Positions 14,418 through 59,047 of a stretch of 64,000 bases of DNA are shown in pieces (the stretch's first letter is position 1; each line of letters begins with the position of its first letter). Origin of the DNA: Balanoglossus misakiensis (lineage: Eukaryota > Animalia > Hemichordata); assembly GCA_040954595.2 (NCBI GenBank), contig CM082596.2:4670181-4734180 (forward strand), read 5' to 3'. Position numbers and translations under genes: made by a program. The notes below the pieces were generated by a model. The model saw only the letters and a list, made by a program, of their open reading frames with translations. It had not been told where the DNA came from and made no database searches.

Positions 14418-17400
14418 TCAGAAATTAGCGTTGAGTTCATAGAACTCAAAGTCCCCATGACTTGGGGGAGGGTCACATGGGCTGGAGATAAGTTCCATAT
14501 CATAACTTTCTAATTCGTCTATAAAACTGCTAGCGTCGGACTGATCGGAGTGGCTCAGCTCACTCATCATCGACTCCTGGTCGTTGTTTAGAAGATTCAG
14601 TTGGAGCTGCTCAGCAGAATCCAGATTATGAGAAGGCTGTCCCGCAGCTTGGGTTGAGGAGGAGGAGGAACAGGAGGAGGAGGAGATGGTAGAGTAGGAC
14701 GTCACAGACGGTGGCGACGGCAGACAGGCGGCATCCTCTATCGACGACGCCGAGCTCAGCGGCGAATCGTGTGCGTAGATGGGCGAGTTGTCGGAGAACA
14801 GGGAGGAGTCCTGGAGACTCTCGCCCTCGCGGCTGTTCTCGGATGGAACGCAGTGGTCCTTTTCCGGCGAGCTGCTCCCCGCCAACTTGGTGCGGCTTTT
14901 CAGGCTGGCTTTCAGGTCCTCTTGTAAGTTGTCGCGCTTCTTGGCCGGGTCCCTCGGCTGGCTCGACTTTGTCTGGCTCAGCAGGCTGGCTGCGAGCTCT
15001 CGGAGAGTGTTCAAGTCCTCTTCCGACAGGGTTTTTTCCTCGCTCGCCATCAGCTGGTTTCGCGCCTCGCAGTTGTAGAGGGTCGACGGCTGATGCGAAC
15101 TCTTGTCTCGGGCCGAGCTGGAAAAGTTGTAGGTGAATCGCGACCGTGCCACGGAGGAACCACCTGTTGCCTCCAAGGTCGGCGAAGGGTCGGGCGTCAA
15201 AAGACTGTCCGGAATACACACCTCCGACTTCAAACTGATGTTGTCCAGTGCCAAGTGCGGCGCGATTCTGGAGTACATGACGTCGACGCCGTCCGGGCAA
15301 GATTTCGGCGTTGCTGGCGTCGGCGGCGGTGCCAAAGTCTCGGCCAGTTGACCGACCATCTGTACCGCGTCCAACGATGCCATGTTGCCCGTTAGACTGT
15401 GCAGCGTGGTGGTGGTGGTCTGCGCCGGGTACATGCAGCTGCTGTTCGTGTCACCCACCCGACTGTACCGACCTCCCATAGAGGCAGACACTGGCAGGGT
15501 GTAGGTGCTGATTTTGACGTCGTACCTGTCGCCGTCTCCGTCGTCGCCGGCGTCGTTGTTGTAGCGGCACGACTTGAAGAGCGGCTCCTCGCCGGACTGC
15601 TCGCTGAGCCGCCGTTTCAAGCGCTTGCGCACCAGCTCCATGGTGGCCTCCTTGAGCGCGGAGAACGTCGACCCGGGGCTCGGGGTCTGCGGCGGCTCTT
15701 GTGCGTTCGACGGCGGGTTGGTCACGAAGTGGCCGCTGGCGGACTCCGCCAGACCGTCGTCGCTCGTTGACGGGAAATAGCCGTGCTGTTCGTGTTCGCT
15801 GGGTATGTCCATGGGCCACATTTCAGAGGACTGTAGATTGCTGGCTTGCAGCGGAAATATGTGGTGGTTCACAGCACTGATCGAGAAACTTTCCGTCACC
15901 ATATTTTGTTGCAAAATTTTATAGTAGTACATCTCGTTATCGCTGGAAGATATAACAGGACAAAATATTATTAATAATTCTTCATTTCGGATTTAGATAA
16001 TTGTAATGGCGGTCATAGATTTCCAAGTTTACTTAGTTTAACCAGGACAGTGACTAAAACTCGTGAGTACGGTCTATCTATTAATTCCTTCTGTCTATTT
16101 CTTCCGTTCGAAGAAGATGAACTTACCTGATGACGCGGTTTTCACAGACTATCGGCGTGTCGGTCAAATCCGGCCGGCTGGTCGCGCTGACGCACACGTT
16201 GATCACCTCTCCGTCCTTGCGTCTCATTCGGATGACAAACTCGCAAGAATTCTGACGTCCTTGTTGTACGTGTCGGAGTACTGTTTCAAAGACAAGAAAA
16301 AAATACGTTTATTTTTTCGATAAGCAAAAGCAATATCAAGCCAGGAGCGACTTGAAATGCGGTGTCGGTTTTATCACACTGTCGGACATCTATTGTAGCT
16401 TTGTCATGTAAAGTATGTTTTCTGTTTTCCTCGTTCATGTGTACGTCTTACAAGGAAGTAGTTTCAAACTCCCAAGGTGTGTCACTTCCTGACTTCGTCA
16501 TCAGTTCTACAAAACGTGAGTACACAGAAAAAAGGACAGAGCGTTCGGAGAAAAGAAAGAAAGAAGGAAAGAAAGAAAGACGGAAATAAACCAGAGAAAA
16601 CGAAAAGCAAAATACTTACAATACTGATGGTGTGTTCGGCCGGTGACGTCATCCTCAGCATAGATCAAATTATACCACGATGTCGCGTATAATTCTTCAG
16701 CGGTGAAGCCGAGATGAAAGAACACACTGAAACGGGAGCACAGAGTGAAATATTTAGATCTTGGTGACCGCTACTGACAACATGTCAATTAGATTACCAA
16801 GGCGACACAGTTCAGCAATTGATAAGTTGGAAGTCAGTCGCATTCGGGATTTTCCCTTAATTTCTCCCTTCGTTTTTTTTTTTTTTTTTTTTTGGGGGGG
16901 GGGGGCAAAAATCAGTAAATTAAAAACAAATACACATATTTCTCTGTCAATACAAGGCAGTACAGTAGGTTATAAAGAGTGTGGGCGCCTATGAGATTCT
17001 TACCTGGACGACGCGTACTGCAATTTCATATCCATGCCGTGGTGCGTCAGGAAAACCATGGTATCGAAGACAGCACTGTCCGTCATCCTTTTCGCTGTGC
17101 CGGACACGGGCGAACAGGTACCAATAAACACGGGCGCTGAATTCCAACTGTCGCCCGGCAGACAGGAATGGAACCGACCGCGGATGTGTACCACCTGAAT
17201 GGAGACAGACATTTCAATAAGCACTTGTTCATTCCACCTCAGCCAGGAAATTGACGTAACTGCGCGCCCAGAGACGCGTTTAAATACGCCTTGTCAATTT
17301 CACACCGAAGGAAATTAAGTCAACCGCACCCTTTACATGAGTGATCATGCGATATTTATTTTGCAGCGCGTTTTGATCACTGTGGCAGGCCATCTTGGAT

Positions 17401-19591
17401 TAGATGAGCTTTATAGCTATACATGACATGGCTAACACAACCAAAGCCCTTCCCAAGTTTACATTTTACAAACACACTGACCTTATTGTCGCTGCAGTTG
17501 TCCTGTCGACGCATTGACCGTGACGTGTTCATTCGACAGAAAAATGCTCGTTCTGCTTGACCTGCTGGTGTGTTCTCGAACCACCGGATCTGGTTCCTCA
17601 CGATCTCGTGGTCGCGATCGTCGATCACATCAAAAATGCTGCCGCCCTGCGTCAGCAAATCAACCTGTTAAACGGACAGAGGATAATCACTTAGAATCTC
17701 TCAAAACATGGTGAAATAGGCGCCTTGCTCAACATGGCGCGATTCATCATCATATATATTCAAAATACGTCCCCATGGTAAAATGCTGGGTTTCGGTGGT
17801 ATACAGTATTGAAATCATATAGAACTTTTTTTTTTTTTTTAATGATACATACCATTGAATGTCCCAGATACTCTGTGACGTTTTCTGAAATGTATAGCAG
17901 TTTTCCTTGACTGTTGCTAACGAGTAGAAAACCATTCACGGCCTGGAAATAAATAAAAAATATTGTTGTTGTTGTTGTTGTTATTATTACTAGATTCTGA
18001 TTCTGATTCTGATAATTATATATTTTTTATTTAAGTATTATTATTGCTTCCACTACTTTTGTGATACTTTCGCTTTTGCGGAAATGTTAAATGGCCGTGA
18101 AATGTACAAAAATAGGAAAGACTTATTGGCCTACTATCGGCACGCGGCCAAGTTGCAGACAATGGCTTTAAAATAGGACAGGGCCTTATTTATGGTTGTC
18201 AAAAAAAGGGGAAAACCCGCTTTATGGCGTGGCATCATGACCTCACAATTGTGCCGCAAAACACACCTGAATACTGCCGTCGTTTAGGGGAAAACCCTCC
18301 GACAGTCTCTTTGGCCGCAGTAGGGTGTACGGACGCGCCTGTCTTTGATTAGAAATATCTGTTTGACTATTACTCCCGCCCGGGCTTTACGAGATTTCCG
18401 TCCCACTTGCGCCAGTTAGCGAGCCATCAAGTCGCAGCCGAATAAACGAAACTAAGGTACTGCGCATGACACCAGGAATGTTGGGGCCTGTTGCGTTTTA
18501 GGGGGGAAACCCCTCCAATTGGACACATCCCGCACACCCTACCCCTCTTGTGATGACGTAATCGTTGCTAGGATACCATTACTTGATTATAACATATAGA
18601 CAGTGGCTGCCAAGGGTCAATGCGCGTGCTAGTCACGTGGTGTATGTTCCTCGTAATTAAAGACAAAAATCTAAACCCAACTTAATTTTTTTTCCACTCA
18701 ATTTAAATCTAACAGCCGAACATAGGATGATACCCGAATTAGATCGACTACGCTAAGAAGACTTTCAATAAGTCGAAAACCCGTCGGATACACGGAAATT
18801 AACCTTTATCATTTCTTTTTTTAGGCAAAAAGTTTAAGCAAAAAAACAGCGTTCTTATATAAACTTACCGGAGTAAAATCGAACTGCACGTCTGCCTTAC
18901 GTGGACTGCGCTGTCTTTTCGTTTGACAGCTGGTCTGATCGTCCTCAAATTCTGTAACAGAAAAATGTATCTCGCGTCAACCTATGAAAGTTACAGCGCG
19001 ACAGGAACCCGATTACATCAAAGACTAGTGCCGACTTTTGTGTAAATACTATGTTGAGCTCCACACGTCCGTATGCCATGCGACGACTTTACAAAACCAT
19101 GTGATTTTAAATCCGGGGCAACATCATACTATGAAATACTGGTAACGGCTCGTCCTCTGTTCATTGTCATCGTTTTCAATTTACAAAATAAGAAAAAACT
19201 TTGTGAAGTTTCATTTTCTCCTACTTAATAAGCCTCTACTGTTTAAAAAAGTTAGTTCTACCCAACAGTCGACTTAAAAAAAATATTATACGTTCAGAGT
19301 AAAATTACTTGCAAACTTCTAAAAAGTTTTCTAAAATGCTTGATTTAGTCATACGGAAAGGCGTTTATATTTAGTTATTGTTTTTATCTCTTTTTAACTC
19401 TAAAAAAACTCCTTACCTTGAGAGAAAAAGTTCGATTTTCGGGTGTACACACATGCTAGAGACATGATGTGAAGATACGACAGCCTTGCTTTGACTGAGT
19501 CCGGCAACGGGAGTAAATCCCTTAGATTCTTAATCTCGGTGTTGATGAGATCTCGCCGTTGTTTCGAAGCACCTCTCGTTGACCTGGACAT
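14418..19591 (-). CDS. NPAS4: NPAS4/dysfusion-like bHLH-PAS transcription factor (core model, 8 exons, ~835 aa)
   Basis: Exons 19591-19417 (b[32 protein letters not shown]...[17 protein letters not shown], very close to vertebrate NPAS4), 18951-18869, 17942-17853 ([12 protein letters not shown]...[18 protein letters not shown]), 17664-17482 ([17 protein letters not shown]...FFCRMN), 17194-17004, 16726-16620 (PAS-B HLGF...SWYNLI), 16280-16127, 15942-14418 (Ser-rich/acidic C-terminus). All GT-AG; phases 1,0,0,0,2,1,2 join without a stop; total 2508 nt. Confidence 0.92.
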
Positions 19592-19979
19592 TGAGAAGAG
19601 ATGGGAAATATCCCTCATGAGTGGTTTAAAAAAACAAGGAAAAATTCCCTCGAGATTGGGAAAAAATACTTGGAAATGTGTCTTGACATTACAAGGGAGT
19701 CCCAACTGAAAAAGCGGTTCACCTGACATAGCGGCTTATAAACATGGTCAGTCGGGTCTGGGTCAAATATTAACCGAAGACTGTACGATAATGCGCCGGT
19801 CCGCTGCCGTAGGGAAAAACCCGAAATGTCCCCTGTACGTTTCCCGAGCGGCTGCTATAGTCTACAGCGAGAGTCTATCTACAACTCTCCGAAAAAGAAC
19901 AAAGGTTGCGCTCGGGCTGATGACCTGAAGCCGCGAGATAAAAATCGTTTGAAATACTTATATTTACAAATCGTGGCGC

Positions 19980-20165
19980 CCTTAAATATAAGCATAACAG
20001 TCAAAGTTGTTGGCGTACATCCCTACTGGTGAGTGGACTAGCCGGGCTCAATTTGATTGGCGGAAGAGGGCAAATCCTACAGGTTGCAGTAAATTTTGAC
20101 ACCCCCAGTTAAGTACCGGCGGTTAGTGATTGGCTCGTTATCAAAAAGAGATGCGGTGATTGGTC
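19980..20165 (-). promoter_or_regulatory. Candidate proximal promoter of the NPAS4-like gene
   Basis: TATA/MEF2-like TTAAATATAA at 19982-19991 and three minus-strand CCAAT boxes (GATTGG at ~20055, ~20128, ~20158), upstream of in-frame ATGs at 19729 and 19591. Confidence 0.5.
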
Positions 20166-21065
20166 GTTAATTAGCACATGCTGCTTAATATTCATATGTT
20201 GACCCGGGGAGACGCAGACTGGCCATGGTTGCCACCCACATAGTCTAACAAGTGATGTGGAACCATCGCTGACAGCCGTCATGCCAACAGCGCACCCAGC
20301 GGCGTGTATCGCGTATACCTTATTTCTTCCCGTGGTCCGTACGCGGCGCTCGTTCTGACATGACTAGTCTTTTAGATGAAATACATGACTACAACCAGAA
20401 CCACACGCTACACAATGCGCAATTATCGCAAACGCATAAAAAGTTATCACATCTACAGTAGACAACTTCATACTCAGGTCACATGACAATATCGACAGAG
20501 AAACTCGCATTTTGACGAACATGACTTTGGACTATCTCTGTAGAGCTAAGATCCCAAGACAAAAGGCACTAATCTTAAAATAATTTTAAAATATTGGAAT
20601 TTGAGATGACTTGACCCTGATTCATATACAGGTTTACTTGAAAGTTCGCGACCTTGCGAAACGCGTCAAACATTTGTTTAATGTTTAATATTCGAAAGGG
20701 CGGCAACATTTTCATTACACGTTGTGGTATTTTTGTTTCTTTACGCGAAATATAACAGCGGTGTGGCGTTTTGACTAAAGTACTAACGAACTGTCGAAGA
20801 AGAAACTGCCTTTGAGACGGCTTCCTATTGATCGCACAACGCCGGCGAGTATCGTCCAATGAAACACGTGTTACACGCAGCTTGCGAGAACATCGCTGTT
20901 TGACCTCACGCAAGAAGGATTAGAGCTGAAGAAGCCAGTCGTCCTTTTCTGACAAGAAAGTCGGTTCTCCCTATGATTCAGCTGTTTTTTTATCTCTCGG
21001 AGCACGTAGCTGCCAGGTTGCCATGGTTACCAAGTGGCGGAAATGACGTCCGGCGTCTTACTTAC

Positions 21066-21073
21066 GTATTCAT
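21066..21073 (-). CDS. Candidate alternative first coding micro-exon of NPAS4-like gene (ATG AAT AC | GTAAGT)
   Basis: Consensus donor GTAAGT in phase 2; joining to the acceptor at 19583 gives MNT-STRGASK. Confidence 0.35.
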
Positions 21074-22099
21074 GAAAGCGAGAGTGACTGCGTAGTGCAA
21101 CCCGATTCATTGTGTGCCACGGTATACCCACACCGACTCGTATCGAGCATCAGAATTTCAAATCTCACCAACGCAACACCCGCCCATCTCTCCGCCCGCG
21201 CACAAGTCGATAAATGGCCTCCCATTTGTACTGACAAAATTAATATCCGAAGCAATCGGTTCATAATAAAGTCACTCACAGAATACAAATTGTCACATTA
21301 AAAAGGAGCACTGCGGTAATTTTTCAAACGGTAATTTCCGCGTTTGGGTGAATATTGTTTTGTTGTGCTTGAATTTTTAAAATCTCTCGCATTCATCTTT
21401 TACCTGTCAACCAGGCATCAATAATAATGTCAATAACCAGGGCCCAATTACTGAACCAAACAGACTCCCTAATTAGCGACTCGACTGAACCCCCCCCCCG
21501 GAATTCGAGACATGTTTTATGTCATCAATCAAAATTTATAGGCGAAGCTCTGGTTGGATTTAGGCCACTCGGTTACGCGACTCGCGTCAGGTTCTGAGAT
21601 CGATAGAGGAAATACCCGCCCCTGTCAAAACTGGCACATTTAATTAAACAGAAATGACGGAACAAAATAAATAAAAGCGGGTATGAACATTGGACGGGCA
21701 GCGCACGTCGCATTTTTTGCCCGATATGGCTGTAAATGTGTACTATCATCGCTGTCGTCATTTGCCCCGACTGCGTTGCCAGGCAACCTGCCTCTCGACT
21801 TCTGCGTCAATCGTCAAATGAGATGGTAATAAGCATGCGCGTCCGAGAGAGAAGCGAAAACGGATTTACTGACTGTTTGTGAAAAATGAAAATAAAATGT
21901 TGAAATAAAGCAGATTTGGGGGACAAGTCGTCCGTGTTTTAAGCGGCGGTGGGCTTGTGAAAGCTGGCGACATATTTTGAAACCATACGCTTGAAATATG
22001 CGCCGTAATACACAGCAGGCTGTGACATCATTCATTCAGTTTCAATGAAAGATAATGAGGCGCTGCTATATTCACACCGCGCCGTACGTACAAACCTAC

Positions 22100-22411
22100 C
22101 TGAACGGGGTGTTTTTCTTCGGTTTGATGCCATTCATTTTGGCGGAGACGGTGACCGGCACGTCTCCCAGCTGTCCACAGAGCGTCATCTGCGCCGCCGC
22201 CCACTGGCGATGGCTGTGGTGATGGTGAGGGTGTTCTTGATGGTGGTGTTGATGTTGATGAAGGGAAAACGCTTTGACAGAAGATGGAGTTGTAGTAGTA
22301 GAAAGCGAAGGCGACGGTGATGAAGAGTCTACACTGACCGGCAGCGTCAGACTACTAAGGCACACAGGTGCTGTTTTGGGGGATGAAGAAACTACACTAC
22401 CGAATGATGAC
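22100..22411 (-). CDS. Candidate 312-nt symmetric (phase 2-2) Ser/Thr- and His-rich N-terminal exon of NPAS4-like gene
   Basis: Acceptor tgttttgtttcttcggcag| at 22411; open frame SSFGSVV...HQHQHHHQEHPHHHHSHRQ...KPKKNTPF; donor AG|gtagg at 22100. Splicing to 19583 yields ...[11 protein letters not shown], matching NPAS4 (M)YRSTKGASK. Confidence 0.6.
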
Positions 22412-23035
22412 CTGCCGAAGAAACAAAACAATAACGTTCCGTTACAACAATGGAACGACAGCGACCTTATAAAAAAAACACACAGCCATAGATATGCTTA
22501 TTTCCGGTGTCGTCAGCCGCAAGCTGCGGACAGCTTATCACCGCTTTCACTTTTCATTAAAAACACGCTTAAAACTAACATCTGTGGATGGTACCTTTTA
22601 GCAAAAAAAATCTTGAGAATTTCACGAGTTCCTTGCCAGTCGAGCCAAAAGCACTGGGGTTCAGCGTGAAAACGACGAGGCCGAGTGATGTTATCGGGAA
22701 GCGCTAGCTTGAATCGTAATTTCACGGCACAGAGAGCTCAACGTGCGGACGGTGGAATGAAACCGACATGGATATTTACCAATTAGATTAAAAACAAACA
22801 AACAGTTGTTTACCTAATTGGGGTGGGGACTAGGGTGGGCTGGGAGACTGTGTGTAGTATTATATGTACAGTACGTCGGAGCAACACGGGTTAAGTTTTC
22901 ACGCCGGTCGATATATTTTTTTTCGGCGAAGCACTGGCAAAAAATGCGCATGCTGTGGGTATTCGTCGCTTCACCGAAAAAAAACCATTACCCTCCCCCA
23001 GAAAACAAAATAAAGGAAAACAACACGCGACTTAC

Positions 23036-23064
23036 CCGTCCTGTCCTGCAGTTGGGTAAAACAT
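23036..23064 (-). CDS. Candidate alternative first coding exon of NPAS4-like gene (MFYPTAGQDG)
   Basis: gcgATG TTT TAC CCA ACT GCA GGA CAG GAC GG|gtaagt, phase 2. Inr-like TCAGTT near 23129 and the CArG/CRE/MEF2 cluster just upstream. Confidence 0.55.
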
Positions 23065-23247
23065 CGCAGCTACCAGCGCTGGACTCGTAAAGTTGATGCT
23101 CACTCTCTGAGTCGTCACATGAAACTGACCGCCTAACGAGATGCAATATAACAAAAAGAAGTCTCGTGGACTGTGTAGGGAAATGCCCAATGTATTACTA
23201 GCGCTCTCCAAACAGCCCATTACCCAGTCAATATGTAATAGGCCTGA

Positions 23248-23392
23248 CCATATATGGACACGTGACGTAGCCGCAATGGCTTAACGCTGTGGTGGTTTGA
23301 CGTCACTGCCAGTCACACGATACCCTCTCAAACGGATCCGAGGGAGAATAGCGGTGTCTATTTTTAACCTCAGTGATCTAAAAATAATGACG
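23248..23392. promoter_or_regulatory. SRF/CREB/MEF2 composite element (activity-response element-like)
   Basis: CArG CCATATATGG 23248-23257; CACGTGACGT 23259-23268; full CRE TGACGTCA 23298-23305; MEF2 CTATTTTTAA 23358-23367 and CTAAAAATAA 23378-23387; half-CRE TGACG 23388-23392. Confidence 0.7.
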
Positions 23393-24715
23393 CTGGGTTA
23401 AATTTAGAAACATAATGGGGTGAACACTTTATTTATCTGAATTTGAAATTATGTACACAATTTCGCGGTAACTCCCGACGTGTTGTTGCCATGATCATGA
23501 GCGCTGGGGTCGGGCACTTTGCCGGAAAAAACTCACTTTGTGTTTGGACTATCGCCACGGCCCAGCCAGACTGGGACAACCTCGAGTGACCTTGGCAGAT
23601 TTGTTTGGCGTTCCCACCCACCGTGCACCGGCCAGACAACAACAGGCGGGCGGGGCTACACACAGCCGCAGGACGTACCGCGTAGAAGACGTACTTGAGA
23701 AAGACGCAAACTTCCGGCAACGGGACGCGCAAACTGTTGGAAGTGGTTGAATTGGTTAGCGTTTGTCACCGTTTCCGTTCTGTGTTTTTCTCTCTCCGTT
23801 CAGGACTTCAGGGCTTTGTATTCGAATTCCGTCAGAGACTTTAGAAGGCGTTCACTAAACGAAAGTATGCTTCCGACGAATACATTACCTCGAATCATCG
23901 TATGCGATATATTTTTCGGGCTGTGGGGGGGGGGGGGGTTAGTGTATCATTTTAAACCTAAACCACGGTCTACCGCTGCGATTGCATCCGCTGCCAAAAT
24001 AGGGCAGGATCACGTTTCGAAACCCAGTCATGTTGCGGACTGGATTAAAATAAAGAGTGATCTGGCTGGCAATAGTTCTTCCATACACAGTACATGCAGT
24101 AGGACAGCGTAAGAAGAACAATGTTTGGACGCGTGTTATGGCGACGCCCTGTACACGTGCCAATTTTGTGGCGCAGTCATCGGGTGCGTTCCGTATTCAA
24201 GCGTCCCATGATGCGCTTGTATGTGTTTATTTTTGTTTTCGTTAAGTCCATGAAACAGAACGACGAATAAAAAACAAACAAAATGAATTTAAGAGGGGGG
24301 ATTGTACGCCGTCTGAACTTTAAAGATTATAGTTGTTGTTTTCTCCTCAGAGATTAGGGGTGACGACTGTTTCTGAAGCGAAATTGTCATTTCAATGATG
24401 CGTTTCTTTTTAAAAGTATGGCGCGCATATATGTGGGTCAGAGCTTGATTGTCAGTGACGTACACAGCAGAGTCACCCGGTTTGAACTCGGAAATCTCTT
24501 TCCCCAGCGGCTGCAATCCCACAATACATACGCATGGTTCCCTGCTCAATTGTTTATATCTACGCCACGACTGGGCAAGACGCATGCAAAAGCTATAGTC
24601 AGAATAGGAGTTCTACGTCAGTGATCTTTCGTTAATCCTAAGACAGGCCCTAAGCGAACGGGGTCTCCCCCGGTTTCCTAGAATTACGCTGAGCTAACGT
24701 CACATCGCGTCTTAC

Positions 24716-24771
24716 CTGCACTGTTGATGATGTACTTGCTGAGCGTCTTCGCGTTGCGCGCTTGTTTTCAT
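24716..24771 (-). CDS. Candidate distal alternative first coding exon of NPAS4-like gene (MKTSAQREDAQQVHHQQCR)
   Basis: gcaATG...TGC AG|gtaaga, 56 nt, phase 2. TATAAATA box on the minus strand at ~24930-24923. Confidence 0.5.
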
Positions 24772-27700
24772 TGCTGATGACGCGCTTTCCCTGAAAAATA
24801 GCGTTTCCCAACCGTTTTTAAACCCTATTCTCGCTCTTTTGTGTTGTTTTCAAACTCACCCGGCGTACGTTTCGGAAACTTAAAGACGCTTTTGAAATCC
24901 GGGATAAGAACAAAGGGCCTTTATTTATATTTGCTTGACATTTACTAGATGCAGGTAGCGGCGTGTCACGATAACCTCGTCTAGAAGTTGCGCCGGCCGG
25001 CCGGCCGACTTGGAACCGCTTCACAGCCGGGCGCTGCCGTCTTAATCGTGACTTCCCGTCGACGTTTACGTCCGTCAGCTGGTGATTAGAGCTTTGGCCG
25101 GGTAAACAAAAATAATAATCATGCTTGAATAGCCATTGATGCCGGCGTTAGTGATTACACCAGCAAAAGTATAGTGGTAGTACGCGTGCATCGTGTTGCG
25201 TGTGTACTTATTCAAGCCCAGCCTGGGAAACGAAATACTAAGAAGCTTTAATTGTCTATAAAGACTAGCCCACTAATCTCAATTTTGCTCAATATCTTTC
25301 TTTACATAGCGTGCAACTACAGTGATAGAGGCCGGGTCTGTGGCCGGACAAATACCAACCCGCACACGATTCTCAAAAAGGAAGCAGAACTCGGTTTGAG
25401 CGACCTTATTAAATGTAGTTTACTATTCCCGGGTACCGTGTCAGATGTTTACTTGTAACGCGTCGCAGTTTCTTCTGCCCACGGGGACAGAAATCCTCGC
25501 TTCAGTGACACTTGCGCGTGTCGTTGGCAGACTAGAAGCCCAGTTACCTACATATGCACCACGGAACCCAACAAAAGCGCCCATTGCTTCTTCCGGCGAC
25601 CGACATTTTTTCACAAACAAGTAATATTTTTGCAAAGTTGTCAACAAGAAATTGTTGTACGAACTGTCAAGGACAGTTAGATGCGGTTTTCTGTCATCCT
25701 TTGGTAAACCGTACTTCCGATAGGTTACCCGACGAGCAGTAAATTTTACTAGACAAACCGGAAATCAACAGGTGTGAGGTGGACCGTTACATGCTTGACA
25801 TTTACACTTTCAAAATTTGTCCTCTGAAGACCAGTGGATCAAGTTAATCCCCACCATAAACGGAACGTGTAGGCGTGCGTCATATGTTTGTATTACGGTC
25901 ATAAGCACACACTGATAAAAGCAACGGTTTATTTGTACATGAAGGTACATAGGGGAACTGTACACACATATAATTAACACCCAATGTTTACCTGACGATA
26001 ACGGCAAGACGTGTACACAAGAGTAAGCGCGCTTTTGGCACCTGGGTGGGCTAATTTGTAGGAGATTTTGCAGCACAGTGCCAACGAGACGTTCACACAC
26101 AAATGCTTTGTCCTAAAACGTGTTTCAAAAGTGCTGTATTATTTGATAATGGCCCGAAGACCAGACTTCAAGCAGTAAAATGCATTTCCTGATCGCGGTT
26201 TTCTGTCAATCGATTAGCGTTCGGAAATTGGTGCTTTTGGGACAAAATTAATGTCATGGACGCGATACACTTGAACTACTTATTTGTACGTATCTAGGCC
26301 TCCACTATACATTCATGACCACATGAGCTTATAATATCAGAATGCAATACAATTGGGTTTAACCCCAATTTGAACGCCAGTGTCAGTGTACTATACAACC
26401 ATATCAATGAACTCTGCGGTGCTTTCAAAGATATATTGATGTCCATTTTGGAAATGGCATAGAAAAGGGACAAGGCTGTTTAATTAAATGGCGATTTTTG
26501 CCAAATTTCACATTTCAAAACAAATTGGTTTGTTTCACACAGTCACTCATTATTCGAAAACACGTCATGATGAAAAGCGTAGGCGACCATCAAAAATCAC
26601 TCTTTTGAAAAACGTTCACAAGTCAACAGAAACTGTCATTGCCTCTTATTTATGCAAATTCCTGCACTTTTATATTGTATTTCTAATTCATCTGAAAAGG
26701 TCAAACGAATATAAGTTGAGTGTGAACCATAAGAAACTACCACGCGTGGGTCTTAGAAACTTCCACAATGCACAAAAATTAACAAAACAGCTATTCTATC
26801 TGTAAAATCACCAGAAGAATACAATTAATTCCATTCCACATTTCTTAATGAAGACCCAGTTCTTGAGAAATCGTCTTGTCACATATTAATGTTCAAATCA
26901 TCGCTGCGTCTATGACGCTGCCACCTTGACTAGTTTATAGTAGTTTACGCACACAAGTACACCAATGGTACCATCCCCACATCAATAACGTGAATTTAAA
27001 ATCAATATACCTTTAGTGAACGGACTGCTTGGATGACTTAAATGATCATATGTGGGCCAGTGTGACAAAAGTAAAAGAAACATCCTGCCTATATAGGAAA
27101 AAGATTATTTTTCATCGATTCCTTTTTGTGCTTTGTTGTTTGATGAAAGAGTGTCTCTGAAACCAGGACATCTTGGCCTGTTGCTAACAATATTCGTGCA
27201 CAATAAACCTTCAAAAACAATCGATTTGATATGTCAGAGTATATATTCACAGTCGCCCACTCAACAGGTGTCAAACGTGGTCTCCGAATTCTCACTACCT
27301 TAATCAGGTTTTTGCTACCTAGGTGAGTGATGAAAATCTAATATGGCCGACACAATTTCAAGATGGCCGATTTCTGGCATGTTTAAGAGATGGTAGTTCA
27401 TAATCTAAAGTGATATACAGTAAACATATCATTTCGTCTATCTCTTACTACAGAGAGTTGTCGACTTTTTACCCATAATGCAATTACTGTCACGTGATCT
27501 GACCTGAGAGAGAGGGAGACAGACAAACACAGCGAGAGACTGTCAAAAACATATTCTTTCTGCCTATTTCCCATTGAGAAATGTTTTCGATAACAGATCC
27601 CAAATTTCTTCCAAACGCGAGCAAAATCAACCCAGTGCCCGGGTCACCATGTACAGTGTAGGCGTTATTGTTTGGCCCTTGAGTGCATGAAATGGGTCAC

Positions 27701-31315: not shown

Positions 31316-31592
31316 GGATAAACTGTGTTAACGCCATCTTGAAAATTTGCAGTGCATTATGGGTCAATTGAGTCCCGGTTGGGGGGCGAGTAGCGTCTAC
31401 AACCTATCCAATTTTCCAGCGGTTTTGTCAGATTTTCTTCAAGTAACGTTAGTAGTAGTAGTTACATGAAGAAAATCTGACTAAACCGCTGGAAAATGGA
31501 TAGGTTGTAGACGCTACTCCCCCCCCAAACCGGAACTCAATTGACCCATAATGCACTGCAAATTTTCAAGATGGCGTAAACACAGTTTATCC
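31316..31592. mobile_element. Near-perfect palindromic (hairpin) MITE
   Basis: Arms of ~125 bp (GGATAAACTGTGTTAACGCCATCTTGAAAATTTGCAGTGCATTATGGGTCAATTGAG...) are reverse complements with few mismatches around a short GTA-repeat loop. Confidence 0.85.
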
Positions 31593-31966
31593 CTATAAGG
31601 TATAATCCACTCCAGTTATTTGAGGCTTGGTAAAGACAATTTAGATAAATGGCCATTGCTGTATAAAACAGTGGCTGAGAAAAAAATTGGCAGATAAATA
31701 CAAATCCTTCAACCCCCCCCCCCCCTCCCCCAGAATTCCGAACATCATTTGAGTGTGTTTCTTCCCAACTGGTGTTGTTCATGCAGACTTTCCTGATGGA
31801 TAGCACACTTGATTTTGTCACTGATGCAGTCGCGAACGCAAACATATTTCTTCTGACAGGTTGTTCGCCTGATAACAACACCCCCTCTTTCTCCTCTGAA
31901 GTCCATTTAGCTGACAATTGGTATATCCTTCCAGGGTAATCAGACAGCCAGTTCAGATGGTATCAC

Positions 31967-32698
31967 CATGGAGGTACTAGAGAGAAGGAGCGAGGACGGA
32001 TTTAAGCGGATTAAATCCCTTTCTTCTGAAGTGTGATAAGCTTCTTAAGTCTTTGTGTTTCTGTGTCGATAGCGTCCTTTGAACCCACTGTGCGTTGCCG
32101 TCGATTTTACAGTTAGGTTTGCAAGATCTACGGGGTAATATTTCTATGATATTAAAAACACTATGCGCACATCGCGGACGAGCATACTACATATGCGTGG
32201 TGACTTTTATTTACATCTAGAGGTCAAGTTTACGCATAACCACTACCGGAAACGTGTCAGGCGGATGTCTTGGAAGACTTGTGGCGTTATTTTTCTTCTT
32301 TGTACAACCAAAAAGTATGATTTTGAAATGAATATTTTGAGTTTTTCGCAAACTTCCGCAAGAAACAATAAGTTCTTAGGTTTTCTTTGAAAACCAATCT
32401 TCCCGATGCAAGTATTTTTGTTCGCGTGGGATGGTGTGGGATGCCCGATATTCACCATTGTAATTGCCAGCGCGGAGACGTTTGGCACAGCAGTTTGGTC
32501 TGGTTGTTTATGCTTTGTAAATCATGGAGACGCGACGCCAGCTATAATTTGTTTATCTACGCAAGCGCACAGCTTGAATGAACGCCTATCAGGTGATAAA
32601 AGGTTGAGATCCTAATGTTTACTGCAAACAGATTAAGACGCACATGGGGTTCATAGGAAACAATAGCGTCCTCGCTCCTTCTCTCTAGTACCTCCATG
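31967..32698. mobile_element. Non-autonomous TIR element, 32-bp perfect TIRs, CATG termini (P-element-like)
   Basis: CATGGAGGTACTAGAGAGAAGGAGCGAGGACG and its exact reverse complement; direct repeat GTATCAC at 31960-31966 and 32699-32705; no transposase ORF inside. Superfamily is inference because the TSD length is ambiguous. Confidence 0.8.
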
Positions 32699-32782
32699 GT
32701 ATCACTCGTTCACGCGCAAAAATGGTGCCTTTAAACCATCAGTTTCCCATTCTAAAGATAGGCATACAACGTCAAACATACA

Positions 32783-53800: not shown

Positions 53801-55470
53801 AATCTTTCTTAGCAAGGGTAGGGCAAACGTATGATAACCACCTGTGATTGTCTTTTGTAATGTTTTTACTGTTTCATGTCTGCCTCAAATGACATGTACC
53901 TCACAGTCTAATGCACTAGTGTATAGTTGCAAACACTCAGAGACATTACCAGTTTTTTTCTTTTTTTTCTAGAATTCGTTAATACACACAAAAGAAAAAA
54001 ATCTTCCACAACTGACCGTACAAACAGACAAAATATACTTACACGCAGAATGACTGCGTCTTCCATCTGGGATTTTCCCCGACATCACCGGTTCATGCCA
54101 CGAGTTATCCCTTGTGTCGAATACCTGGACCTTATTGCAGTAGAGTTCGCTGTTTGTGTGCCAGGGCCCCTGTAAATCGGACCGTCCGCCAAACACAACG
54201 AGGAGATACTGATTGACCGGGATAGCTGTGTGGAAATCTCTCCAGTAGGCCGGCCGTCCCTGTTGGAGCAGGAAAAAAAAAGCAAGATTGAGTTTGATTA
54301 CAAGCAAAAAACAAGGTGTTAGTAAAATCTGTCCCATAGTATTACCAAACCCTGTCTAATCGTCTATAGTATTACCAAATCCTGTCTAATCCGGAAACCT
54401 GTCTATACCAAACACCTTTTCCAGTCCCTTCCACAGTTAAAAGAACCTCTATAAACTTGGCAATAATGATGCGCCACTTACCCTTGAAACACGAAGCAAT
54501 GTCCACGTCATGGTTGAGGTGTCAAGTTTATGTACAGTGTTGGAAAAACATTCCATCTGTGATTTAAGAGAGAAAAAATAAATATTTGAAAAAAACAGCA
54601 AATCTCAATTTTTAAATTGTCTTTACAGAAACGATGATTGGTTTTTGGTATATAAAAATAAATCAAACAGACGTCGCAACTAGACATACACATTTCTAAT
54701 GATAAGACATTACCTGGTCTTCATAGCCTCCGAATATAAAAATATTTTTTTCAAGTACACAGGCAGAGTGGCCATCTCTAGCCGGGGGGATGTCACCATG
54801 AACCTCTGGACAAAACCAGTTATTTTTACCTGGAAATTGACAGAGAAATTCTCTTCTTATTTAGTTCCTCTCATACATTTAAATTGTACCAAAGTACCGG
54901 TATGTACCCGGTAGTGAAAGGGTTAAAGGTTGCAGTAAAATCACAGTACATAAAGATATCTCTGGTTATTTATAAATCAGCTTCACTATATATACCAGGT
55001 ATAACATATTGATATCAACTCACTTGTATTAAAACAGAAAAGTCTATTGCAGGCACCGACTGAGTCGTTTCTACCGCCCCACACGTAGATGATTTCGTCC
55101 ACAGCCACCGCCGTGTGTCCGTATCTCATGTACGGAACAAAATCCGAGTCTTCGTGTGTAGTTGGAAGCTCGACCCATCTGTAAGTTACTGGAAACACAA
55201 CAAACAGGAAGAGTGTCACAAAAGGAAGGACTGATTATAATACACTGATACCAAAGCAGGTCTGACATTTCCTGAGTTCATCACAAGCTCTGAAACCACA
55301 AACCTGTTTTACTTACACATATCAAAAACGTGGACATCAATGGGACGTAGTGTTTCATAGTCATCTCCAGTACAATATCCACCGAATGTATACACTTTGT
55401 TGTCGATAGCGCAAGCAGCGTGGTTGACGCGGCGAGGGCCTCCTTCCAGGTGGACAATCCAACTCAACAT
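35807..55470 (-). CDS. KLHDC3: Kelch domain-containing protein 3 (9 coding exons, 383 aa)
   Basis: Exons 55470-55317 (MLSWIVHLEGGPRRVNHAA...FGGYCTGDDYETLRPIDVHVF), 55188-55024 (VPYMRYGHTAV..WGGRND), 54829-54714 (ARDGHSAC..IFGGYE), 54556-54482, 54259-54043 (WRDFHTA..FGGR), 52494-52296 (PCARRRQCCC), 44973-44894 (LMDHSDLYILDF), 40099-40021 (PTLKTLCKLAV, BC-box), 35873-35807 (WEITAMTTNTTISRP...G*). Phases consistent; 1152 nt. Confidence 0.95.
44668..44846. mobile_element. MITE with TA flanks (Tc1/mariner-type), CTGTAAAACGG family
   Basis: TA|CTGTAAAACGGGAAATTTTCACGA ... TCGTGAAAATTTCCCGTTTTACAG|TA, perfect 24-bp TIR; lies ~47 bp from a KLHDC3 donor site. Confidence 0.85.
50844..51176. mobile_element. 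TTAA-flanked MITE (Kolobok/T2-type AGGG termini)
   Basis: TTAA|AGGGACAAAGTCTCTCTC.CGCTGCCCTTTTT.CCATT ... AATGGAAAAAGGGCAGCGGGAGAGAGACTTTGTCCCT|TTAA; ~50-bp imperfect TIRs. Confidence 0.85.

Positions 55471-56919: not shown

Positions 56920-59047
<2,128 letters not shown>

What the first reader, a model, noticed from the sequence alone, without database searches (positions are those of the whole stretch)
19583..24935. Array of phase-2 alternative first exons feeding one cryptic acceptor in an NPAS4-like gene
Seen: the apparent start ATG TCC AG|G TCA sits inside a pyrimidine-rich acceptor (tcccatctcttctcaatgtccag|, exon start 19583). The strong minus-strand GTAAG donors I found upstream (21065, 23035, 24715) each close a short ATG-initiated exon in the same phase 2 (MNT; MFYPTAGQDG; MKTSAQREDAQQVHHQQCR), and the 22411-22100 exon is phase 2-2. 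The 23.0 and 24.7 kb exons each have promoter-like signals, and the CCAAT/TATA region at ~20.0 kb could drive an unspliced form. Inference: 4-5 promoters swap the N-terminus right in front of the DNA-binding basic region, a BDNF-like multi-promoter design. Vertebrate NPAS4 is generally described as a compact gene starting MYRSTKGASK.
Basis: partly seen in the sequence, partly recalled or inferred. Interest (0 to 1): 0.85.

Follow-up and report, generated by a model that had tools for sequence, protein, structure and literature searches.

The report
Two conserved starts for acorn-worm NPAS4
An acorn-worm copy of the neuronal activity gene NPAS4 likely has two conserved alternative front ends rather than four or five, and the longer one sits just behind a tight cluster of MEF2, CREB and SRF consensus sites, which hints that stimulus-triggered control of this gene may be older than vertebrates.

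Summary
The gene is an enteropneust (acorn worm) NPAS4 ortholog, 72% identical to Ptychodera flava. Distal: 23064-23036 joined to 22411-22100 and then 19583. Saccoglossus and Glandiceps NPAS4 proteins start with this two-exon peptide (9/10 and 10/10 identical in the first exon). So the 20 kb promoter likely makes a spliced form. The 21.07 kb exon looks like chance; the 24.7 kb exon is plausible but has no homolog. The ATG inside the acceptor aligns with the vertebrate MYR start. New here: three MEF2 sites, a full CRE and a CArG box lie within 160 bp just upstream of the distal exon (P about 1e-4 on re-placing real sites), like the SARE listed at human NPAS4. The long form adds a conserved KK before the basic region. 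No RNA reads could be examined. Swapped first exons before a bHLH are known from HIF genes.

The parts
24923..24929 (-). TATA-like box (TATAAAT) about 155 nt upstream of the 24771 ATG; possible third promoter
   Evidence: consensus match only
24716..24771 (-). Candidate far-distal exon (MKTSAQ...QC-R, phase 2); unproven. May be a coding first exon, a 5'UTR exon spliced to an acceptor at 23132/23170 (out of frame via 23132), or chance
   Evidence: donor cag|GTAAGA, CAGGTAAG expected 0.06 times in the region; second strong donor at 24859 and weak acceptor at 24790; first ATG after 24900; no protein match
23248..23407 (.). SARE-like cassette: MEF2 consensus sites at 23398-23407, 23378-23387, 23358-23367 (20-bp period), full CRE 23298-23305, half-CRE/E-box 23259-23267, CArG box CCATATATGG 23248-23257
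   Evidence: 0 of 400 whole-window and 0 of 3000 regional shuffles had all three kinds in 200 bp; P=1e-4 when the real site counts are re-placed at random
23036..23064 (-). Coding part of the distal first exon (MFYPTAGQD-G, phase 2, donor cgg|GTAAGT); an in-frame ATG also lies at 23220
   Evidence: 10/10 identical to Glandiceps and 9/10 to Saccoglossus N-termini; top score 57 vs next 29 among 127,936 positions
22100..22411 (-). Second exon of the distal form, 104 codons, Ser/Thr/Pro/His-rich, ending KKNTPF-R; phase 2-2
   Evidence: 56% and 59% identity to Saccoglossus and Glandiceps; tblastn E 8e-16 and 4e-23 against the 20 kb upstream; no Pfam family
21066..21073 (-).
   Evidence: donor 5 of 7; no MEF2, CRE, CArG or TATA within 450 nt upstream; no homolog N-terminus
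19982..20163 (-). Proximal promoter-like region: three CCAAT boxes (20163, 20133, 20060) and an AT-rich MEF2/TATA-like site (19982-19991)
19723..19745 (-).
   Evidence: 7/8 identical to P. flava isoform X2; score 34 vs next 22 among 127,948 positions
19584..19722 (-). 139-nt proximal intron; if retained, the MFISRYVR frame stops in the donor (AGG TGA) and in-frame ATGs at 19618 and 19591 could give [12 protein letters not shown]... or MSR...
19417..19591 (-). bHLH exon; ATG 19591 aligns with residue 1 of vertebrate NPAS4; shared acceptor at 19583 lies inside the Arg3 codon (AG|G)
   Evidence: PF23183 positions 1-53 of 54, E 2e-31; aligns 1-57 to NPAS4 chains 7xhv/7xi3/7xi4
14418..18951 (-). 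Body exons 18951-18869, 17942-17853, 17664-17482, 17194-17004, 16726-16620, 16280-16127, 15942-14418 (PAS-A, PAS-B, C-terminal region)
   Evidence: GT-AG borders and one open frame; 72% to P. flava, 55% to Glandiceps, 48% to Saccoglossus over the whole protein

Best explanation
This acorn-worm NPAS4 gene likely uses two conserved promoters whose phase-2 first exons are predicted to splice onto one acceptor inside the Arg3 codon of the bHLH exon, giving a long and a short N-terminus. Shown: the exons, their phases, and their peptide matches to relatives' proteins. Inferred: the distal unit (23.0 kb exon + 22.4 kb exon) adds about 114 low-complexity residues ending in KKNTPFR; the proximal CCAAT-rich promoter adds only MFISRYVR, and may also give an unspliced MSR form from the ancestral ATG. 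Predicted: the MEF2x3/CRE/CArG cassette makes the long form the calcium/cAMP/serum-inducible (immediate-early) one, while the CCAAT promoter gives a basal or tissue form. The conserved KK would complete a bipartite nuclear-localisation pattern with the basic region's KQRR and could also contact DNA upstream of the TCGTG core, so the induced isoform would enter the nucleus or choose sites differently.
For: Both named relatives from other families start with the distal two-exon peptide, colinear with the window's exon borders. The closest relative (sister in the tree, 93/88 support) has an annotated 'isoform X2' that starts with the proximal peptide. Both short peptides are the single top hit in about 128,000 six-frame positions. 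The window holds both, and both end in phase 2. The cassette is far beyond both null models and lies at only 1 of the 4 candidate first exons. A 163-bp SARE cluster of type 'utr' is listed for human NPAS4 (PMC3561385 passages and Table S1 row). The bipartite pattern occurs in the distal form only of 5 window forms, and in 3 of 127 held proteins: both enteropneust long forms and one unnamed MHR-type protein. Basic residues N-terminal of the HIF-alpha basic region contact upstream DNA and set specificity against SIM1 (PMC12774657 passages).
Against: No junction read was seen; RNA could not be examined. The relatives' sequences are database gene models whose RNA support and exon positions I could not see. 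No single relative was shown with both forms: each gave one protein, and a search with the Glandiceps extension found only itself. The cassette's conservation was not tested, since no relative's DNA was available. Real sequence is richer in motifs than shuffles: an RFX-type pattern occurs 13 times against 0.2 expected, which is why the re-placement control was added. MEF2, SRF and CREB also drive muscle and general stress genes (established knowledge). Amphioxus Npas4 was not seen in the embryonic CNS (PMC4066832 passage). No TATA lies next to the 23.0 kb exon, and it has acceptor-like sites at 23132 and 23170, so the cassette may be an enhancer. The NLS and TF consensus patterns are recalled.
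Confidence: 0.7

Rival explanations
1. Two 5' ends exist, but the distal one starts at the TATA box at 24.93 kb. The 24.7 kb exon is a 5'UTR exon (its MKTSAQ frame being an upstream ORF) spliced to the 23.0 kb exon, and the MEF2/CRE/CArG cassette is an intronic enhancer.
For: The only TATA consensus hit near a candidate first exon is at 24929; two strong donors follow it (24859, 24715); the 23.0 kb exon has acceptor-like sites at 23132 (score 13) and 23170 (14) and no TATA. Joining 24716 to 23132 puts MKTSAQ out of frame with a stop in the 22.4 kb exon, which would explain why relatives' proteins start at MFYPT.
Against: Acceptor scores of 13-14 are common (10% and 6% of background AGs). CRE and CArG 180-240 nt upstream of a first coding exon fit a promoter well.
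Confidence: 0.15
2. One reading: four or five real coding first exons, including 24.7 kb and 21.07 kb, each splice in frame to 19583 or 22411.
For: All joins are in frame; three phase-2 ATG-led GTAAG exons have P=0.047; strong donors are mildly enriched; a perfect RFX-type box lies at 21017-21030 next to the 21.07 kb donor.
Against: After removing the real 23.0 kb exon, two such sites have P=0.19. Neither peptide matches any of 128 held proteins. RFX-type boxes occur throughout the window.
Confidence: 0.08
3. Only one 5' end is used in this species; the other is a conserved remnant, or a relative's model is a prediction without RNA support.
For: Each relative returned a single form; the 19722 donor is weak (5 of 7); 7 of 8 identity in a promoter-proximal stretch could reflect DNA-level constraint.
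Against: The distal peptide is kept across three enteropneust lineages whose proteins are only 48-55% identical overall; the P. flava label 'isoform X2' implies at least two annotated forms; the proximal exon keeps ATG, phase and donor.
Confidence: 0.07

Closest known systems
Mouse Hif1a exons I.1/I.2 and Hif3a/NEPAS exons 1a/1b (bHLH-PAS alternative first exons)
   Same: Alternative first exons spliced to the bHLH exon change only the few residues before the basic region; one Hif1a form uses a Met inside exon 2 (PMC13760070 passages), like the 19591 ATG here.
   Different: Here it is the NPAS4 family; one form adds over 100 residues through two exons; the acceptor sits inside the codon 3 of what is the first coding exon in vertebrates.
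Vertebrate NPAS4
   Same: Ortholog: PF23183, residue 1 aligned with solved NPAS4 chains; a fish-like locus has the same 175-nt exon end AAG|GTAAG; a SARE cluster is listed at human NPAS4.
   Different: 51 of 128 held proteins, nearly all vertebrate-named, start M-x-R directly; in the fish-like locus Arg3 is CGC, so no acceptor exists there. The cassette here is 3.7 kb upstream of the homologous ATG, at a different first exon; homology of the two cassettes was not tested.
SARE (synaptic activity-responsive element of Arc)
   Same: CREB, MEF2 and SRF sites clustered in about 100-160 bp (PMC3561385 passages).
   Different: Three MEF2 sites at a 20-bp period; invertebrate; no functional test; conservation across species not tested.
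BDNF multi-promoter locus
   Same: Several 5' exons feeding one common acceptor, some activity-regulated.
   Different: BDNF's 5' exons are mostly non-coding and many; here two are supported and both change the protein.

Membership tests
NPAS4/dysfusion bHLH-PAS family | NPAS4-type bHLH domain | tested here: met
   PF23183 E 2.3e-31, 108 bits vs cut-off 27; best PDB hits are NPAS4 chains
NPAS4/dysfusion bHLH-PAS family | PAS-A and PAS-B after the bHLH; groups with NPAS4 orthologs | tested here: met
   72% whole-length identity to P0001, which carries PAS families; sister to P. flava in an 18-row tree that held NPAS4-family rows only, no outgroup. One single PAS exon scanned alone gave no Pfam hit.
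Alternative-first-exon gene | Two or more first exons with compatible phase and a shared acceptor | tested here: met
Alternative-first-exon gene | Coding conservation of each first exon in relatives | tested here: met
   met for 23.0+22.4 kb and 19.7 kb; not met for 24.7 and 21.07 kb
Alternative-first-exon gene | Junction reads and separate transcription start sites | not testable with these tools
   no RNA holder was listed, so no reads could be laid
SARE | CREB, MEF2 and SRF sites clustered within about 100-200 bp | tested here: met
   160 bp, five full-consensus sites; (consensus patterns recalled)
SARE | Conserved between species | not testable with these tools
   no enteropneust DNA besides the window
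SARE | Drives transcription after neuronal activity | not testable with these tools
   needs a reporter or induction assay
BDNF-type multi-promoter array | Four or more, mostly non-coding 5' exons | tested here: inconclusive
   two coding 5' ends supported, one possible, one likely chance; non-coding exons cannot be seen by protein homology

The most novel reading that the evidence does not exclude
A SARE-type MEF2/CREB/SRF switch at NPAS4 predates the split of chordates from hemichordates and echinoderms. In acorn worms it switches the isoform as well as the level: stimulation induces a long NPAS4 with an extra basic tip (a junction-spanning nuclear signal and extra DNA-flank contacts), while a CCAAT promoter makes a short form. 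Vertebrates would have lost the intron at Arg3 and kept only the in-exon ATG.
Probability: 0.25. Interest if true: 0.75.

Novelty: new variant of a known kind. Interest (0 to 1): 0.5.

Why it matters
Passages read say invertebrate Npas4 homologs look functionally divergent from the vertebrate immediate-early gene (PMC4255624) and that amphioxus Npas4 was not seen in the embryonic CNS (PMC4066832). So when NPAS4 became activity-induced is open. A 160-bp MEF2/CRE/CArG cassette at a conserved NPAS4 first exon in an animal with a largely diffuse nervous system (established knowledge) gives a direct test, and a candidate activity reporter for hemichordates. The isoform swap also gives a natural test of whether residues just before the basic region tune NPAS4 import or site choice, as shown for HIF versus SIM1. 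The multi-first-exon design itself is ordinary for bHLH-PAS genes.

Tried and rejected
RNA runs for 15001-25000: no RNA holder was listed; no evidence either way. No own genome is held. Cluster members of the relatives' proteins, which might have shown P. flava's other isoform, could not be looked up. Search with the Glandiceps extension (residues 1-100) returned only itself among 543 candidates, missing even Saccoglossus, so it is insensitive. The 22.4 kb exon found 0 hits among 1.84 billion representatives; also weak evidence, as the exon is low-complexity. ESM Atlas gave only generic bHLH clusters under 0.9. No Rfam match in 12-34 kb. The candidate exons are not copies of each other or of window repeats: only short chance-like repeats and no blastn hit elsewhere in the window. 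CpG content does not single out promoters (0.65-1.42 throughout). Amphioxus has an 82-residue extension ending PFR, but it does not align convincingly with the enteropneust one and has no tblastn match to these exons. A phase-2 donor 3.5 kb upstream in annelid-like locus L002 ends in F-F-(AG) and first looked like a shared exon; its frame resembles none of 5 annelid-type proteins tried and the DNA looks repeat-like to me, so I do not count it. PMC9674253 (passages) and PMC6935488 (passages) held nothing on N-terminal contacts or promoter sites. Four look-ups of earlier findings returned nothing.
Full report
Identity. The minus-strand gene has eight GT-AG body exons from 19583 to 14418 forming one open frame. 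The bHLH exon matches PF23183 and solved NPAS4 chains from residue 1. Of 17 proteins found with that exon, the top three are enteropneust hemichordates: Ptychodera flava (96%), Saccoglossus kowalevskii (93%), Glandiceps talaboti (91%). Whole-protein identities are 72, 48 and 55%, and an 18-row tree (18 of the 128 proteins held, NPAS4 family only) puts the window next to P. flava with 93/88 support. The window is thus an acorn worm related to, but distinct from, P. flava.

The observation. The statistics are modest. GTAAG is not enriched upstream (4 seen, 4.9 expected); a fifth of random GT sites have a phase-2 ATG frame within 60 nt; three such GTAAG sites have P=0.047 and two have P=0.19. Strong donors by a simple 7-position score are mildly enriched (5 vs 1.43, P=0.013). 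Phase agreement alone therefore cannot carry the claim; homology has to.

Distal 5' end. The Saccoglossus and Glandiceps proteins begin MFYPTAGQ(E/D)G, run on into SFGSVVS... and end their extension with PFR before STKGASK. The first ten residues match window 23064-23035 (top score 57 and 53, next 29 and 26, of about 128,000 positions), and the rest matches exon 22411-22100 at 56-59%. The breaks in the match fall on the window's splice sites. So 23036->22411->19583 is one 5' end, kept across three lineages, and the 19583 acceptor is a normal one (score equal to the best body acceptors).

Proximal 5' end. P. flava 'isoform X2' begins MLISRYVR. A scan of the window found MFISRYV-R at 19745-19723, ending in phase 2 at cag|GTGAAC, 139 nt above the acceptor; score 34, next best 22. 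It is the first ATG downstream of 19960 and lies below three CCAAT boxes and an AT-rich site. An unspliced form remains possible: the MFISRYVR frame stops within the donor, and in-frame ATGs lie at 19618 and 19591. The 19591 ATG aligns with the vertebrate start; 51 of 128 held proteins have Met exactly there. In a fish-like locus the Arg3 codon is CGC and cannot be an acceptor, while the exon's 3' end is the same.

The other two candidates. No held protein matches the 24.7 kb peptide or an MNT start. The 24.7 kb exon still has a TATA box, a near-perfect donor (CAGGTAAG expected 0.06 times) and a second strong donor at 24859, so I give it about 40% of being transcribed, perhaps as a 5'UTR exon into 23132, which would be out of frame. 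The 21.07 kb exon has a weaker donor and one CCAAT only; about 15%.

Regulatory cassette. Upstream of the distal exon lie three MEF2 consensus sites 20 bp apart, a full CRE, a half-CRE/E-box and a perfect CArG box within 23248-23407 (consensus patterns recalled). None of 400 whole-window or 3000 regional shuffles held all three kinds within 200 bp. Because real DNA is richer in motifs than shuffles, I also re-placed the real counts (16, 9, 9) at random 20,000 times: three kinds in 200 bp anywhere P=0.035; five sites of three kinds P=1e-4; three kinds within 400 nt of any of four candidate exons P=0.0017. The motif set was chosen after seeing the sequence, so these values are somewhat optimistic. 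The cluster has the make-up of the Arc SARE, and the same paper lists a 163-bp cluster at human NPAS4 (PMC3561385: passages and one supplement row). Homology between the two was not tested.

How it likely works. Shown: two phase-2 5' units with peptide matches in relatives, and the cassette at one of them. Inferred: two promoters, both splicing into the Arg3 codon. Predicted: the distal promoter responds to calcium, cAMP or serum-type signals; the long protein gains a low-complexity tail (48-52% S/T/P/H/Q) and a KK that completes a bipartite nuclear-signal pattern across the junction, found in 1 of 5 window forms and 3 of 127 held proteins (pattern recalled). Basic residues at this place contact upstream DNA in HIF-alpha and are absent in SIM1 (PMC12774657 passages), so site choice could differ too. 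I put two real 5' ends at about 0.85, and stimulus induction of the long form at about 0.4.

Against. No reads were seen. Relatives' proteins are database models, one per species. The cassette might be an enhancer, or serve muscle or stress rather than neurons; amphioxus Npas4 was not found in the embryonic CNS (PMC4066832 passage).

What is known. Alternative first exons that swap the residues before the bHLH are described for mouse Hif1a and Hif3a/NEPAS (PMC13760070 passages). Ten literature searches listed no paper whose title or abstract start deals with alternative first exons of NPAS4 or with hemichordate NPAS4 regulation; the one paper holding both 'Npas4' and 'hemichordate' (PMC7535936) I saw as a listing only. 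The library lacks most subscription papers, and bioRxiv supplements are closed, so genome-paper tables may bear on this. The long and short proteins already exist as automatic annotations in other species; their coexistence and the cassette are what is new.

Verdict. New variant of a known kind; interest 0.5.

Noticed in passing
window 21017-21030: Perfect RFX-type X-box (GTAACCATGGCAAC) just inside the 21065 donor; a partial one at about 20233. The pattern has 13 matches across the window against 0.2 expected, so X-boxes are common here.
   Followed up: partly
window 24971 and 22627 (-), 25046 (+): TCGTGA sites, the NPAS4/ARNT2 core, near the far-distal TATA and the 22.4 kb exon; possible autoregulation, but 37 such sites occur in the window.
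   Followed up: no
window 22186-22188 (-): Internal in-frame Met (MTL) in the 22.4 kb exon is invariant in all three enteropneusts; a motif or a second start.
   Followed up: no
L002:4161 and L003:1690: Annelid-like NPAS4 loci also have an AGG Arg codon in an acceptor-like context (scores 14 and 12) and share an in-frame upstream peptide starting MGLGAQV. Weak hint that the acceptor at this codon is older than hemichordates.
   Followed up: partly
P0020, P0021 (amphioxus), P0040, P0043, P0010, P0011, P0014: 9 of 127 held proteins have F-R before STKGASK, like the distal form; 50 have Y-R. An aromatic residue before the Arg seems favoured; the MSR and proximal forms lack it.
   Followed up: partly
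window about 58430-59047 (-) and 56920-57489 (-): TRMT61A/GCD14-like tRNA methyltransferase gene (PF08704 for the first stretch; ORFs).
   Followed up: no
window about 53969-54355 (-): Exon of a kelch-repeat gene (PF24681).
   Followed up: no
window 31960-32030 and 32670-32700; 31360-31440 and 31480-31550: Apparent inverted-repeat pairs seen by eye, suggesting small non-autonomous transposons upstream of the gene.
   Followed up: no
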